From contig JBDRTG010000004.1 of the NCBI GenBank assembly GCA_043824255.1, forward strand, positions 1 through 34,568: a stretch of 34,568 bases of DNA. Reading direction: 5' to 3'. Position numbers: made by a program. Within the stretch, counting starts at the first letter, position 1; each line of letters opens with the position of its first letter. This document shows positions 1 to 18,187 of this stretch, one piece after another. The stretch comes from a bacterium. GTDB lineage: Bacteria > JAHJDO01.

Positions 1-3000
1 TGCCAAAGGCTAATAGTTTAGGAGGATAATTTTGGAAATGAATATAAAAGGAAAAGAAACAGAAGGACTTGTTCTGGAATTTGACGTGGCAAGAATGTTT
101 CTTGCAGAAGAAGAAGAAGAAGAAGAAGAAGAAGCCAGTATTGTCGTATCACTTAAAGATGTTACCGAGCGCAAGAAAGCAGAGAAGGTATTGCAGGAGA
201 ACAAAGAATTTAATAGAGCCCTGTTTGAGTACAATCCTATTGAGACTATAATCGTGGATTTGGAAGGGAAAATAATAGACTTCAACCTTGCAAAAAAGGT
301 CTCAGGTGATAGATTGCCTAATATTGGAGATGTAATGTATAGTAATTATGCAGCTCATCATGAGATTGATATGCATGCTGAATTGATGAAATGCATCAAA
401 GCAGGGAATGGGAGAGAGTTTCATGAGCAAAAATACAAGAACAGGTTTCTATCTATAACAATAGCTCCCTTTCCTAAAGGAGCTATTATAACATCTCTAG
501 ACATCACCGGGCACAAGGAGTGGACAGAAAAAGAGAAAAAAAGAGCTATAGAGTCGCAAAAGGCTTATGAACAACTGCAAGCCAGTAAGGACGAGTTGAT
601 TCGCTCCGAGAGACTCGCCTTTACCGGCCGCATAGCCGCAAATATTGCGCATGAGATAAGAAATCCCCTGACCAATGTAGCTATGGCAGTCCAGCAGCTT
701 AGGAAAGCCATTAAGACAGAAGACCCCATGTCTAAAAATATGGACATCATTAAAAGAAACACAGAAAGGATTAACTACTTAATTACTGAACTCCTAAACT
801 GTGCCCGCCCGCCAAAACTTAATATACAGCCATGTAATATTCATAAGGTATTAGAAGATATTTTAGAGTCCAACAAGACTAAGATTACTTCAAAAAGGAT
901 AAAGATAATTAAAAGGTTTACCTCTGACACATTCATAATAAAGATTGATAAAGAACAAATGCAGCGTGCCTTCTTAAACATAATCATTAATGCTATTGAA
1001 GCGATGCCCAAGAGAGGCAAATTGACCATTATTACAGAGTTTAAAGGAAACCTTTTTGAGGTGAAGATTCAAGATACAGGTAAAGGCATTCCTGAAGAAG
1101 ATATTATCAGGATATTTGACCCTTTCTTTAGCTCCAAGTCCGGGGGTGTAGGCTTAGGGTTAACTATATGTTATGGGATTATTGTCAGCCATGGCGGTAC
1201 TATAGAGGTAGAAAGCAAGCCGAAAGAAGGGTCTATCTTTATGGTCTCTTTGCCAGTAAGCTAGAACAGATCGTATACGGAATACGAACGACGGAGTGTA
1301 ATAGTGGAAATAAAATATGATATTAGAAGAGGCGCAGATATATATCGGGCAATTTATGGAGCTCGATTACAGAAATGGATTCTTGCAGGTAAGATAAAGC
1401 GAGGAGAAGTAATTGTCTGGCGAAGCGGTCTTTCAGGCTGGCGCAAACCTGAAGAACTTGAGGAACTGGCGGTATTTTTTAAACAGTGGGAAAAAGAACA
1501 ATTAAGAGAAAAAAAGAGGTTAGAAGAGCAAATCTTCCCGAAGAAGAAGATAAAGAATATTTTAATAATAGACGATGAGAAGGATTTATGTTCGCTTCTG
1601 TCTGATGCCTTAATCCAGAGAAACTACAATGTATCGATTGCAAACACAAAAAGAGAAGCTATGGCTTGTCTTAAAAAGGAATCACCCGATTTAGTTCTGT
1701 TAGACCTAAAACTACCTGATGGTGATGGAATAAAAATCCTTCCTAAAATCAAAAGAGTAAATCCAGAGACAGTAGTAATTGTAATTTCTGCCTATGGAAG
1801 CGAAGAAGCCAGACAAATGGCAAAAAAGGGAGGAGCTTTTACCTTTATAAACAAGCCATTTACTGAAGAAGATATATTGAAGGCTATAAAAGTACTCTCA
1901 TAAGAAATGTAAAAATAAAAAATAAAAATGCAAAACGACAAATCAAAATTTAAAAAGGAATTCAAAAGAAGATTATATAACTTCGCCCTGAAACTTATAG
2001 AATTCATAGATAAATTACCAAAAGACAATGTTTCAAGAAGAATCGGAGATCAATTGTTGCGAAGTGGGACAAGCATTTTGGGGAATTATATTGAGGGGCA
2101 GTCAGCCAGCAGTAAAAAAGATTTTACTAACTATTTTAATATTTCGTTGAAATCTACAAATGAGAGCAAATTGTGGGTTTCACTGCTTCGGGATACTAAG
2201 CGTGTTAGTCCTGAGGAAGTTACTTGGTTTTTGCAGGAGTTGAAGGAAATTGGCAATATTTTTGGCACGAGCATTTTAACTCTTAAAAACAGGAAATGAT
2301 TTTGGATTTTAATATGTAATTTTGATATTTGATTTTTAATATTTAATTTTACTTAAATGGGGTTCTAACGAAGTGGAAACAATCCTAATAGTAGATGATG
2401 AGAAGGATTTACGTTTTAACCTTTCCAATATTTTGAAGGACGAAGGTTACAACGCAATCGCTGTGGGAGACGGAAGGAAAGCACTTAATGCAGTTAAGAA
2501 AAATTCTCCCAATTTAGTCCTGCTGGATATGAAGCTTCCTGAAATGGATGGGATGCAGATTTTAGAGAAGATGAAGCTGATTGATGAGGATTTGGTTATT
2601 ATAATGCTTACTGCTTATGGAAATCTAAATGGAGCGGTAAAAGCAATGAAATTAGGGGCATTTGACTATCTTGCCAAGCCTTTTGATAATGAAGAATTAA
2701 TTCTTGTAATAAAAAGGGCTCTTCGGACCCAGTATTTAACCAAGGAAGTAGAAACTCTAAAAAAACGGTTTGGTGAAAAAGTTACAGCAGAAGAGCTGAT
2801 GGGAGAAAGCCCTCAAATAAAGCAAGTCTTAAAGCAGATTAAGATAATCGCTCCGACCAATATGACTGTAATACTTCAAGGCGAAAGTGGGACAGGCAAA
2901 GAATTAATTGCCCAGATGATTCATCAAGAAAGCCCGCGAAAAAATAACCCTTTTATTGCTATAGACTGCGGCGCAATTCCCGATACATTGGCTGAGAGTG

Positions 3001-6000
3001 AACTCTTTGGTCATGAAAAAGGCGCCTTTACAGGAGCTGATGCTCAAAAAGAAGGCAGGTTCGAAGAGGCTAATGGAGGAACTCTGTTTCTGGATGAGAT
3101 TACAAATCTCTCTTCTACTACGCAGAGAAAACTTCTCAGAGTGATACAGGAAAGAAGGCTTCAGCATATAGGCGGCAAGAGAAGTATAAAAGTTGACGTC
3201 AGAATAATCGTGGCTACGAACATTAATCTCTCAGGTGCGGTAAGGCGTGGTAAATTTAGAGAGGACCTCTTCCATAGGTTAAATGAATTTCATATTTCGC
3301 TTCCCCCGCTTAGGGAAAGAAAAGATGACATCCCTCATTTAGCCATGCGTTTTTTGGAGGGAGGAAATCAAGAATTAAATAAAAAAATAGAAGGGTTTTC
3401 TTCTGATGTAATGAAATTGCTTCTGGATTACCCCTGGCCGGGCAATGTTAGAGAATTAAAGAATGTAATCAGAAAAGCAGTACTTCTATGTGATTCCAAT
3501 CATATCAAACCGGGACACTTTCCATTAGATAATATTGCTTCCACTAAAAAGCCCGAATTTCAGCAGGATTTGGATAAAGGAGTCTCCCTCAAAGAGATAA
3601 CTAAAAAAGCGACAAAACAGATAGAAAAGGAAGCCATTGAGCAAGCACTGGCAAAAGCCGGTGGCAATAAAACTAAAACCGCCAAAATCCTCAAAATAGA
3701 CCGCATGACCCTCTATTCTAAGATGAAAGAATACCAAATACGGCACGTGTAACGCTGTAGAACAAACTCTACACTTCCCAAACGAACGCTGAAAGCTGTT
3801 GTAAGATAAATTCTACACAGACGTAGAAACAACTCTACACTTTTGCATTTAAATTTTCTCCATTTTTAAGCTCCTCAGAATTCTTTCAAAAGATATTTTT
3901 AAAAAAGAGGATACGCAGGTCGGAAAATTTTTTAGTAGATAAATTGGCACGGAAGTTGCTTCTATACTTAAGTAACAGAAAACAGAGCGCAGGTTTTTCT
4001 GCTTTCTGAATTTTAAACGAGGGGAGGTGGAAAAAATGGCAGTAGAAAAAGCAATCGGTTCATCTAGTTTGGTGGAAGTTATTGACAGAATCCTTGATAA
4101 GGGTGTTGTGGTTGATGCATGGGTTAGAGTTTCTTTGGTCGGTATTGAAATACTGGCTGTTGAAGCAAGAGTCGTAGTCGCATCAGTCGAGACATACCTG
4201 AAGTATGCTGAAGCAATTGGTCTAACCGCAACAGCAGCTTAAGGATAGTTAAGAGAAAGGATTCTTGCCGAGCCACCCTTATGAACACAGTCTGTGCTCA
4301 GAAAAGCATGGCTCGCCAAGAGATTCCTTCTTCTCCCTAAGGTAAAAGAAAGAGGAAATGAAGATGGCAGAAGCGCTAGATTTAAAGGATGTAGTTGAGG
4401 ATGTTGTTTCTTCCTATGAGAAGAGAATCCAGAGCATTGGTTCTGTTTTTGATGTTGATACTGCTCGTCTAATTTTTGGCGACTCTCAAGGGTCTCTCAT
4501 TCACACCAGAGAGGAAAGAGGGAAAATTAATACTCAGCTTCGGGATACCCTTGCCAGAAAAGAGCATCTCAGGAAAAAAGACTTTGACAATATGATGCAG
4601 AGCACCTTATCAGTTCAGGATCAACGGGAAAAAGAAGTAAGAGGTTCGTTAAATACTTATCTTAATGAACAAAAAGAGATGGCTCAGGTTTTAAGGGAAA
4701 ACTTAGAGAAGTTTAGAAATTCTCTTGCCATAGGTGAGGTCGGAAGAGTCAAGGAATTCCAAACAATAATTAAAGAGGTCCTTTCAAAGCAGGAAAAGAG
4801 AAAAGAAGAGATTACTTCTAAACTAAAGGATTTTCAGAAAGAACAACAGGAAATGGCAAAAAGACTCAAGGAACTTCTAGCAAAGGGAAGGGAGCTTAGG
4901 ATAAAGGATTTCAAATCAATGCTTAAGGAATTCAATGTTCAAAGAGATGAACGATTGGTGCTTCAAAAGAGCAGGAAACAAGAAGTGACCAAAATGCTCA
5001 GTGGCTTTAGAGAAGAAAGACAAAGAGCAGTAAAAGAGGACACAAGTAAGAAACGGAAAATTAAAAAGGAGGAATAAAGATGGGAATAGCAGAGAGTATG
5101 AGAAGTATGGTAGATGATATCGTTGTATCTCATGATTCACGGTCAAAGGCAATTGGCAGTATAGTGTCTGATACACAAGACATTCTGGGTAATGCCAGAA
5201 AAGCTGTGAAAGACTTTGCTGCCGATAGAAAAAAGATGAGTGCAGAACAGGCCAGGAACCTGGCTGATTTTGCAAAGGATTTGTCAAAGAGCACAGGAGA
5301 TATGCTTAACATATTCCATACTAATCGTAAACAGATGAGTGCGGAACAGGCAAAGAGCTTAGCAGATTTTGTTAAGGGTATATCAAAGAACGTAGAAAAA
5401 CTGCGACAGAATGCAAAAGATATGATTAAGGGGTTCCATAAAGACCGTAAACAGACGGGTGCAGAACAAGCAAGGAACTTAGCAGATTTTGCTGGCAGTC
5501 TGGCCAGGGATGTAGATTCGATGTTGATTGGTTTTGGGAAGGACCGCAGCAAGATGTCAAAGGAACTCAAGGACAAACTTGGCAAAGCAATAAAAGATAT
5601 TAAAGTATCTGTTGCTGAGACAATCAAAGGTGCCAGAAAACTCGTAGACGAATATAGCTCTGATATGGCAAAGGCAAAAGATGCATGGGAGAGCATGTCT
5701 TCCACTTCGGCTAAGGCTAAAAAAAGTGGTGTTGCGCCCAAGATTGAAGTCAAAGAAAAGGTAGCTACAGTTAAAGAAGCAGCGAAAGCAAAACCAAAAG
5801 CTAAGCCTAAAACTGTAGAAGGTCAGATATTAGCGTTGCTCGAGGAGCATCCGCGGGGAAGAACCATGGTCCAGATGGGAGAGGAGATGGGTGTCCACTT
5901 TGCCAGCCTCCTTCATCCAATGAAAAAACTGCTTGAAAGCGGTAAAGTCAATAAAATTGATAAAAAGTACCGTTTAGTCTAAGAGATCGTAACAGTGGCG

Positions 6001-18000: not shown

Positions 18001-18187
18001 TTTAATCTCACCAATATAAAAGAACCCTTTACTGCTTTTTTCTCTTTCATCGTTAATCCCATAGACCATCTCCTGTTTTAATCTTTTCCCCGCCTTTATA
18101 TCAGGGTCTATAACCTAAATTTTTGTGTAGATTTTTACCTGATGCAATGATATAATTCCCTGTTAACTAAAATCCGTGGTACTATAA

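What a model noticed while it worked through the whole genome (the two positions that open the first line are those of the whole stretch)
2373..18019. An archaeal-type Cdc48/p97 ATPase is a fixed part of a sigma-54-controlled gas-vesicle operon
The 21-gene gas-vesicle operon (gvpA, N, four gvpL/F incl. a GvpF-DnaJ fusion, G, K, J) holds a full-length Cdc48/p97 (724 aa, 59% to Archaeoglobus) between a Get3/ArsA ATPase and Hsp20 genes. This Cdc48 belongs to a bacterial clade tied to gas-vesicle operons across many phyla, pointing to an unfoldase role in vesicle assembly or turnover.
Evidence so far: Gene tables; sigma-54 site 91 nt before gvpA, behind an NtrC-type activator; of the 80 best loci for this Cdc48, 28 of 34 bacterial loci hold gvp genes within 8 kb (5 of the 6 misses are contigs under 6 kb), 23 also the ArsA; 0 of 46 archaeal loci do. 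CDC48_2 is in 2% of bacteria.
(Added by a program. Inside this text positions count along the whole contig: contig position 1 is position 1 of the stretch shown here. "Call 12" and the like, gene names such as g00115 and contig names such as C1 are that model's own, and its searches are not shown. The text may have been shortened before it was handed on; [...] marks where a part breaks off. The agent that wrote the report below was given it as the finding of a first reader that could run no searches.)

Follow-up and report, generated by a model that had tools for sequence, protein, structure and literature searches.

The report
Gas-vesicle GvpZ is a Cdc48 unfoldase
The p97-like protein-unfolding motor in this flotation-organelle operon is real and appears to be the long-named but unexplained gas-vesicle gene gvpZ, an optional helper found in one widespread type of gas-vesicle cluster, probably keeping the sticky shell proteins under control.

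Summary
Observation confirmed: an NtrC-type gene, a sigma-54 box 91 nt before gvpA, and 21 co-oriented genes holding an intact Cdc48. The link is not a search artefact. In an even sample of 301 genomes of one phylum, 20 of 23 gvpL/F genomes carry Cdc48, and gvp-linked copies group together (96/89) inside a bacteria-only lineage. 'Fixed part' holds only for this cluster type: 0 of 6 actinobacterial and 1 of 22 Bacillota gvp genomes link the two (seeds excluded). The gene is already named. Published Serratia 39006 primers read as Cdc48 motifs and land in order on a contig with the Serratia gene order, so gvpZ is this Cdc48. Its deletion kept vesicles in Serratia but lowered the signal in E. coli; by the primers, the Serratia deletion left the D2 ring in frame. 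The last gene matches gvpY and has a TIKI/ChaN-like fold. Best reading: a proteasome-independent Hsp20-Cdc48 quality-control module for shell proteins, accessory rather than essential (0.55). The papers I could search do not call GvpZ a Cdc48. This scan noted the same module before on other DNA (at least six earlier reports).

The parts
2373..3752 (+). NtrC-type sigma-54 activator (receiver, AAA, Fis HTH); GvrA-like
   Evidence: PF00072, PF00158, PF02954; the role of Serratia GvrA is from PMC4982088
3945..3960 (+). sigma-54 -24/-12 promoter box, 91 nt before the gvpA ATG
   Evidence: the pattern lies before gvpA in 15 of 39 loci against 8 of 780 random 400-nt windows
4036..4242 (+). gvpA, major shell protein
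   Evidence: NF006874 130.5 bits, over cut-off
4253..4335 (+). long RNA hairpin after gvpA, a possible attenuator or stabiliser (inference)
   Evidence: -33.8 kcal/mol, z -3.1
4358..5077 (+). 239-aa charged helical protein with a 58-residue repeat; no family
   Evidence: recurs after gvpA in related loci
5080..5982 (+). 300-aa protein with 33/40-residue helical repeats; probably GvpC-like (inference; GvpC repeat length recalled)
   Evidence: repeat scores 108-144 against a shuffle maximum of 56; no GvpC family hit
5995..6318 (+). DnaJ-type CXXCXGXG zinc-finger protein
   Evidence: PF00684 43.8 bits
6340..7254 (+). gvpN AAA+ ATPase
   Evidence: TIGR02640, over cut-off
7286..7588 (+). 100-aa protein in the gvpV position with a conserved terminal Tyr; GvpV-like by position only
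   Evidence: no family hit
7627..8157 (+). small heat-shock protein (GvpH equivalent), close to the archaeal Hsp20 model
   Evidence: PF00011; weak PF05455 GvpH; NF041800 136 bits, cut-off 140
8165..9100 (+). single-domain Get3/ArsA ATPase with CxxC; probable gvpW equivalent (synteny only)
   Evidence: TIGR00345, over cut-off; ArsA lies between gvpG and gvpA2/K in L158 and upstream of gvpA2/K in L175; primer test inconclusive
9100..11274 (+). full-length Cdc48/p97-family ATPase (N-D1-D2), equivalent to GvpZ; no HbYX tail
11278..11748 (+). second Hsp20; accessory, absent at this place in G001 and G004
11745..12368 (+). response regulator (receiver plus tail); accessory, inserted with the second Hsp20
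12411..12554 (+). 47-aa ORF, 91-98% conserved in G001 and G004
12570..13574 (+). GvpF/L fused to a J-domain (HPD intact)
   Evidence: PF06386 plus PF00226
13582..14352 (+). GvpL/F
   Evidence: PF06386
14340..15104 (+). GvpL/F
   Evidence: PF06386
15104..15343 (+). gvpG
   Evidence: PF05120
15340..15600 (+). GvpO-like
   Evidence: PF05800 24.4 bits, just under cut-off 25
15622..16437 (+). GvpL/F
   Evidence: PF06386
16445..16999 (+). GvpA-like (M/S) domain fused to GvpK
   Evidence: PF00741 plus PF05121
17018..17323 (+). gvpJ
   Evidence: PF00741; NF046090, below cut-off
17342..18019 (+). 225-aa protein equivalent to GvpY; TIKI/TraB/ChaN/EreA-like fold with invariant His11, Gln66-Asp67, Glu108, Glu116, Arg150-Asp151 and His176

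Best explanation
The Cdc48 is GvpZ, a vesicle-dedicated, proteasome-independent ring unfoldase co-transcribed with the shell genes from the sigma-54 promoter. GvpH (Hsp20) and probably the Get3-like ATPase hold newly made, very hydrophobic GvpA/J/M subunits. GvpZ threads trapped or mis-assembled subunits through its pore and releases them for another round of GvpF/L-guided assembly, helped by DnaK recruited through the GvpF-J fusion, or for general proteases. It raises yield and limits toxicity but is not needed to build a vesicle. Shown here: gene order, intact motifs, linkage, lineage, no HbYX tail, and identity with gvpZ (from primers and synteny). From papers: non-essential in Serratia, lower signal in E. 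coli, and aggregation of a GvpA-family shell protein. Inferred: hexamer, substrates, partners and direction of handling.
For: Both rings keep Walker A/B, pore-loop aromatics and arginine fingers; the D1 finger motif is identical in 41 of 41 and 14 of 14 rows of the two gvp-linked subgroups. The closest solved protein is VAT (E 2e-232). HbYX occurs in 0 of 55 rows of those subgroups (a few cut by contig ends) against 13 of 31 archaeal rows. The host has HslV as its only proteasome-family match, and 8 of 9 other GvpZ genomes show no real 20S beta match. In 53 gvp-linked loci the gene just upstream is Hsp20 in 21 and ArsA in 19. An Hsp20-Cdc48 pair also occurs without gvp genes (L161, L171), so it is a ready-made quality-control module. 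In the 301-genome sample, 20 of 23 gvpL/F genomes have Cdc48, 16 of them within 8 kb on one contig; the 14 placed copies from gvp-negative genomes fall outside the GvpZ group. Primers: gvpZ_3F maps to Cdc48 position 455 (22.1 bits, next best 9.8 of 14,634 placements), gvpF2_5F to 462 and gvpH_3R to 244. The exact gvpZ primer retrieves L175, which has the Serratia gene order and a Cdc48 beginning with the same four residues. Deleting gvpZ, H, W or Y reduced or eliminated the ultrasound signal in E. coli (PMC10344784). The shell protein GvpA2 of the pNL29 cluster aggregates and is toxic in E. coli (PMC12848028).
Against: Serratia deletions of gvpZ and gvpH still make vesicles, and the gvpH mutant showed no change in shape or stability. 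Most known clusters lack Cdc48: 0 of 6 non-seed actinobacterial and 1 of 22 non-seed Bacillota gvp genomes link it; Octadecabacter and Spartinivicinus plasmid clusters lack it. The host has a ClpB/ClpC-like gene that could do the same job. Three unlinked Bacillota copies nest in the GvpZ group, and one gvp-adjacent copy (L121) lies outside it. No substrate or partner evidence exists. The Serratia gene itself was not obtained; the identification rests on primers, synteny and a related contig.
Confidence: 0.55

Rival explanations
1. Recycling machine: GvpZ takes apart collapsed or surplus vesicles and feeds subunits to a dedicated hydrolase, GvpY, so that the cell can sink again or recover amino acids.
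For: GvpY homologues occur in 19 of 301 genomes, 18 of them with both gvpL/F and Cdc48; the 3 gvp genomes without Cdc48 also lack them. GvpY is directly next to Cdc48 in 8 of 53 loci. Its model (pLDDT 94) matches ChaN (Z 8.5, rmsd 4.4, 160 aligned), HopBA1 (8.2), PMT (6.3) and EreC (6.1), a superfamily that includes peptidases (PMC6254334). A turnover role would explain why deletions still float.
Against: The canonical 2His/2Glu set is not clearly present: residue 9 is hydrophobic, and the second-strand acid is Gln66 or Asp67. Comparison with E. coli YbaP was not significant. PMT lacks the catalytic set and ChaN is a haem-binding protein. Z values near 8 are modest. Deletions lowered rather than raised the signal in E. 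coli.
Confidence: 0.2
2. Assembly segregase: like p97 or Drg1 on maturing complexes, GvpZ pulls assembly factors (GvpF/L/G/K, GvpH or GvpC) off the growing shell so that they can be reused.
For: A GvpF/L gene follows Cdc48 directly in 33 of 53 loci. The N domain is intact. The E. coli signal is reduced on deletion. Segregase activity is general Cdc48 behaviour (recalled).
Against: Vesicles form without full-length GvpZ in Serratia. GvpN already supplies the AAA+ step needed for elongation. Most clusters have no Cdc48.
Confidence: 0.15
3. Hitch-hiking or regulatory role: a general Hsp20-Cdc48 stress module that shares the sigma-54 (low oxygen or stress) regulon, or one that turns over the Gvr regulators, with no direct action on shell proteins.
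For: Hsp20-Cdc48 pairs exist without gvp genes. In the Serratia-type order the pair follows gvrA in the regulatory operon. Deletions float.
Against: Linkage survives several different gene orders and many phyla. In the window's genus, 3 of 7 genomes have both and 4 of 7 have neither. In the Omnitrophota-labelled sample, 0 of 143 gvp-negative genomes have Cdc48.
Confidence: 0.1

Closest known systems
Serratia sp. ATCC 39006 gas-vesicle cluster, gvpA1CNVF1GWA2KXA3Y / gvrA gvpH Z F2 F3 gvrB gvrC (Tashiro 2016, PMC4982088; Hurt 2023, PMC10344784)
   Same: Sigma-54 promoter and NtrC-type activator, several GvpF, and GvpH. GvpZ is the Cdc48 and GvpY the 225-aa family; GvpW is probably the ArsA (synteny only).
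   Different: One operon in a different order, single-domain ArsA next to Cdc48, GvpF-J fusion, zinc-finger gene, GvpO-like gene, and a second Hsp20 with a response regulator. The window's Cdc48 is in subgroup A; L175 is closer to subgroup B (64-68% against 61-62%). The papers list GvpZ as of unknown function.
Archaeal VAT/Cdc48 (Thermoplasma VAT, PDB 5g4f) and eukaryotic p97
   Same: N-D1-D2 architecture and all catalytic and pore motifs; TIGR01243 over cut-off.
   Different: No HbYX tail, no 20S proteasome found in the host, a bacteria-only lineage, and embedded in an organelle operon.
Cpa of actinobacteria (Ziemski 2018, PMC6017811)
   Same: Bacterial Cdc48-like protein without HbYX.
   Different: Separate long branch. 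Cpa binds the 20S proteasome and was not next to gvp genes in the two copies seen. That paper treats other bacterial copies as sporadic archaeal transfers and has no occurrence of 'gas vesicle'.
ArsA- and Hsp20-containing gvp clusters (Castillo and Saier 2010, PMC2963123)
   Same: ArsA homologue and Hsp20 inside gvp clusters with several L/F genes.
   Different: That paper describes two-domain ArsA of about 600 aa and has 0 occurrences of 'cdc48'. Here ArsA is single-domain, as in 18 of 29 loci measured (one of the 18 is cut).
TIKI/TraB/EreA/ChaN superfamily (for the GvpY gene)
   Same: Fold and His/Arg/His motif positions.
   Different: No family over cut-off; the catalytic Glu pair is not established; specific to gvp clusters.

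Membership tests
CDC48/p97/VAT family | N domain (CDC48_N + CDC48_2) followed by two AAA modules; TIGR01243 over cut-off | tested here: met
   930.6 against 802.65 bits
CDC48/p97/VAT family | Intact Walker A/B, arginine fingers and pore-loop aromatics in D1 and D2 | tested here: met
   the D2 inter-subunit Asp is Gly in 3 of 41 subgroup-A rows (the window's genus)
CDC48/p97/VAT family | Hexameric ATP-driven unfolding | not testable with these tools
   inferred from family
Proteasome-coupled Cdc48 (archaeal Cdc48-20S) | C-terminal HbYX motif | tested here: not met
   0 of 55 rows in the gvp-linked subgroups against 13 of 31 archaeal rows
Proteasome-coupled Cdc48 (archaeal Cdc48-20S, Cpa) | 20S proteasome genes in the genome | tested here: not met
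   only HslV found in G000, which is 87% complete; 1 of 9 other genomes has a strong 20S beta match
Cpa | Falls in the actinobacterial Cpa cluster | tested here: not met
   the two actinobacterial copies (taken as Cpa by inference) form a separate long branch
GvpZ (Serratia 39006) | Sequence homology to the gvpZ product | tested here: met
   indirect: three primers map to Cdc48 positions 244, 455 and 462; an exact gvpZ primer match lies inside the Cdc48 of L175.
GvpZ (Serratia 39006) | Position after gvpH and before gvpF genes in a sigma-54 gvp cluster | tested here: met
   window: Hsp20-ArsA-Cdc48-(two inserted genes and a short ORF)-gvpF; Serratia order in L158 and, up to Cdc48, in L175
GvpW = ArsA | Homology of gvpW to ArsA | tested here: inconclusive
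   two flanking primers did not place best on ArsA; synteny only
TIKI/TraB/EreA/ChaN (GvpY gene) | Parallel beta-sheet core fold | tested here: met
   the top four structural matches all belong to the superfamily, Z 8.5-6.1; 21 of 36 members weakly match PF01963, best E 2e-4; scores are modest
TIKI peptidase (GvpY gene) | 2His/2Glu catalytic set | tested here: inconclusive
   His11 and His176 are invariant; the Glu positions could not be assigned
sigma-54-controlled gvp operon | -24/-12 box, enhancer-binding protein and rpoN | tested here: met
   dependence itself is not testable here

The most novel reading that the evidence does not exclude
GvpZ and GvpY form a new kind of AAA+ protease: a Cdc48 ring that has swapped the 20S proteasome for a TIKI-fold peptidase, dedicated to dismantling gas-vesicle shells. 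This would address the open question of how vesicles are turned over. Its role may have been hidden because the published native-host gvpZ deletion kept the D2 ring and only vesicle formation was scored.
Probability: 0.12. Interest if true: 0.85.

Novelty: new variant of a known kind. Interest (0 to 1): 0.5.

Why it matters
It gives a testable biochemical identity to gvpZ (Cdc48) and gvpY (TIKI-like fold), two genes listed as of unknown function in a genetically tractable gas-vesicle system that is used as an ultrasound reporter in E. coli. It points to a bacterial p97 relative that works without a proteasome, on a protein organelle. If it limits shell-protein toxicity, adding gvpH and gvpZ to clusters that lack them could improve heterologous vesicle production. 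The cluster type, its regulation and the gene itself are already in print, and public annotations already label these genes CDC48, so the surprise is moderate.

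Tried and rejected
Literature: searches for gas vesicle with Cdc48, p97, gvpZ, ATPase or AAA found no paper calling GvpZ a Cdc48. 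Three primary Serratia papers were not held. Fig. S1 of PMC4982088 (GvpZ tree) was too large to read. 10 of 22 supplementary files of PMC10344784 were not searched, and its Supplementary Fig. 6 is an image. Any of these could state the identity.

Complex prediction for Cdc48 with GvpY was not available, so binding is untested.

For GvpY: Foldseek gave no match at E<=0.001, the best being ChaN at E 0.05; the PDB sequence search was negative; the ESM Atlas gave only hypothetical clusters; no TraB gene was found in 5 genomes for comparison; the YbaP comparison was not significant.

gvpW = ArsA was not shown by primers. The second primer hit, L174, matched no operon protein and is treated as chance. 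The sigma-70 scan was at chance level (37 against 35); a terminator-like site at 8241 lies inside arsA and was not pursued.

RNA run X1 has little cover over Cdc48, which proves nothing. Rejected: a recent archaeal import, one exclusive gvp clade (three label changes in all 200 bootstrap trees), and proteasome coupling.

Rows dropped from trees: matches under 560 aligned residues, duplicates and G513, also the long-branched L115, L116, L119, L121 and L122 and close relatives (55 rows kept, 6 of them added after the 110-row set). L121 is gvp-adjacent yet outside the GvpZ group.

Full report
Observation. The window holds an NtrC-type activator (2373-3752), a TGGCAC-N5-TTGC box at 3945, and 21 co-oriented genes from gvpA (ATG 4036) to 18019, mostly with gaps under 45 nt. 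The Cdc48 (9100-11274) passes TIGR01243 and overlaps the ArsA stop by one base. It is the genome's only copy. rpoN is present, and the only proteasome-family match is HslV. I count 29 of 34 bacterial loci with gvp genes within 8 kb, 21 of those with ArsA, and 1 of 46 archaeal loci with a lone weak GvpN-like hit. Contigs from one groundwater RNA run match parts of the operon letter for letter, and a second run of the same study has near-identical pieces inside Cdc48. DNA in the library is not excluded, so this is only compatible with expression.

Is the linkage real? Phylum names below come from the label of the seed locus, and kin are not independent. In the window's genus, 3 of 7 genomes have Cdc48 beside gvpN and 4 of 7 have neither. 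In the phylum of G007 (Syntrophaceae label, 301 genomes), 35 have Cdc48, 23 have GvpL/F and 20 have both. Of those 20, 16 are linked on one contig (seed included), 3 are at contig ends or on tiny contigs, and 1 is unclear. The 3 gvp genomes without Cdc48 have partial or broken clusters. Of the 15 Cdc48-only genomes, the 14 that could be placed fall outside the gvp-linked group. In the phylum of G008 (Omnitrophota label, 151 genomes), 8 have GvpL/F and 5 have Cdc48, all inside the cluster; a sixth has a broken copy at a contig end, and 0 of 143 gvp-negative genomes have one.

Where the linkage fails. In Actinomycetota (151 genomes), 0 of 6 non-seed gvp genomes are linked. In Bacillota (201 genomes), 1 of 22 non-seed gvp genomes is linked; 9 genomes have Cdc48, one of them the unpublished G513, on which only that tally rests. 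On plasmids, Methylocella and Methylosinus clusters have Cdc48, Spartinivicinus and Octadecabacter clusters do not, and on Halobacterium pNRC200 gvpN and Cdc48 lie 140 kb apart. So Cdc48 is nearly fixed in one cluster type and missing from the others.

Lineage. In a 55-row IQ-TREE analysis, the 26 gvp-linked copies and 3 unlinked Bacillota copies form a group with support 96/89. It has two subgroups (100/99 and 98/98) and lies inside a 37-row bacteria-only group (100/99). With the actinobacterial copies as outgroup, that group nests among archaeal sequences with weak support. This fits an old transfer, as proposed for non-actinobacterial copies in PMC6017811 (passages), not a recent import. 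One divergent gvp-adjacent copy (L121) lies outside the group and was not in this tree. Catalytic and pore motifs are conserved in both rings, and none of 55 rows in the two subgroups ends in HbYX, against 13 of 31 archaeal rows. Of 9 other GvpZ genomes, only the actinobacterial one has a strong 20S beta match.

The gene is gvpZ. Some loci have the order 225-aa gene, NtrC, Hsp20, Cdc48, gvpF, gvpF, which mirrors Serratia 39006 gvpY, gvrA, gvpH, gvpZ, F2, F3 (PMC9501494 table passage). PMC4982088 calls GvpZ of unknown function and conserved in four other proteobacterial clusters (section 5). Its primer table (Table S3) allowed a test against profiles of all 22 operon proteins. The gvpZ 3' primer places at Cdc48 residue 455, the start of D2 (22.1 bits, next best 9.8). 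The gvpF2 5' primer places at 462 and the gvpH 3' primer at 244, with smaller margins. The gvpY primer places at residue 4 of the 225-aa family (17.0, next best 8.8). The implied homology arms are all about 0.8 kb, as expected for a protein of about 720 aa (my inference). A scan of metagenomes for the exact gvpZ primer gave 2 hits. One is chance. The other, L175, has the order ArsA, gvpA2-like, K, an unassigned ORF, J, 225-aa gene, NtrC, Hsp20, Cdc48. Its Cdc48 begins with the four residues that the gvpZ 5' primer encodes, and the gvpF2 and gvpH primers have their best sites at the expected places, the gvpY primer in a tie. I did not obtain the Serratia sequence itself. gvpW = ArsA rests on synteny only.

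What has been tested. In Serratia, gvpZ is not among the genes required for vesicles. PMC10344784 states that deletions of gvpC, W, X, Y, H or Z preserve vesicle formation in the native host, while deletions of C, H, W, Y or Z reduced or eliminated the ultrasound signal in E. coli (passage). By my reading of the primers, the Serratia in-frame deletion joins the first four codons to the start of D2, removing N and D1 and leaving D2, so it may not be a clean null. The authors note that subtle or condition-specific roles were not assayed (Discussion). Sigma-54/GvrA control is published, as are ArsA and Hsp20 in gvp clusters (PMC2963123, passages). The sigma-54 pattern precedes gvpA in 15 of 39 loci, against 8 of 780 random windows.

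GvpY. This family has at least 1,382 members, with no Pfam label among the 120 listed. It occurs in 19 of the 301 genomes, 18 of them with both gvpL/F and Cdc48 (the profile was built partly from these genomes). Among 72,556 plasmids it was found on 4, all of which carry gvpN. Its model (pLDDT 94) matches ChaN, HopBA1, PMT and EreC best (Z 8.5-6.1), and 21 of 36 members weakly match TraB. Two His and an Arg-Asp are invariant, but the catalytic Glu pair described for this superfamily (PMC6254334, passages) could not be assigned.

Mechanism. A GvpA-family shell protein aggregates and is toxic when assembly factors lag (PMC12848028, passages). The gene just upstream of Cdc48 is Hsp20 in 21 and ArsA in 19 of 53 loci, and a GvpF/L gene follows directly in 33. 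Hsp20-Cdc48 pairs also exist without gvp genes. The simplest reading is a recruited holdase-unfoldase kit that rescues or removes mis-assembled shell subunits without a proteasome (0.55). Rivals are dismantling of vesicles with GvpY (0.2), extraction of assembly factors (0.15) and a co-regulated stress or regulatory role (0.1). Substrates and partners are inferred throughout.

Novelty. Seven paper searches found no statement that GvpZ is a Cdc48. Three primary Serratia papers and one supplementary figure could not be read, and RefSeq already labels such genes CDC48. Earlier reports of this scan describe the same module as never tested; the identification with gvpZ contradicts that. Other papers seen only as passages and adding nothing: PMC11267810, PMC5601083, PMC6107691 and PMC2405808. 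Verdict: real and widespread, an accessory part of a known cluster type, with a useful new assignment of two named genes; interest 0.5.

Noticed in passing
window 4358-6318 against L155 (G004): The operon is mosaic within the genus: G004's front genes are only 31-58% identical and include extra zinc-finger, gvpO and gvpJ genes, while Hsp20-ArsA-Cdc48 and the gvpF block are 92-98% identical.
   Followed up: partly
window 11278-12368: The second Hsp20 and the response regulator are an insertion absent in G001 and G004; the same pair occurs in L085 and L022.
   Followed up: partly
window 4253-4335: Long hairpin after gvpA (z -3.1); an earlier scan note mentions a conserved hairpin there.
   Followed up: partly
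window 3974: An RNA-library contig begins about 15 nt after the -12 box, near the expected sigma-54 start; contigs cannot show a start, so this is a weak hint only.
   Followed up: no
window 18279-22501: hpf, ptsN-like, HPr kinase, tpiA, HPr and ptsI follow the operon, whereas rpoN, often found before hpf (recalled), is on contig C32.
   Followed up: no
window 1928-2299: Four-helix-bundle (23S rRNA IVP / Avd-like) gene between the response regulator and the NtrC-type gene.
   Followed up: no
L121 (G293:C74): A very divergent Cdc48 (39%) from another lineage sits beside gvpJ/K genes in a genome that also has a normal GvpZ, possibly an independent recruitment.
   Followed up: partly
L084, L169, L170: A separate bacterial Cdc48 lineage (one Desulfobacterota-sample copy ending in a GQYL tail, plus Rhizobium and Methylobacterium plasmid copies) branches apart from the GvpZ group and is not gvp-linked.
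   Followed up: partly
L011, L013, L014, L020, L023, L151: Several clusters carry two gvpN paralogues, often preceded by zinc-finger genes.
   Followed up: no
P0174: A GvpY-family protein of 339 aa annotated with a GvpA-type domain (PF00741), possibly a fusion.
   Followed up: no
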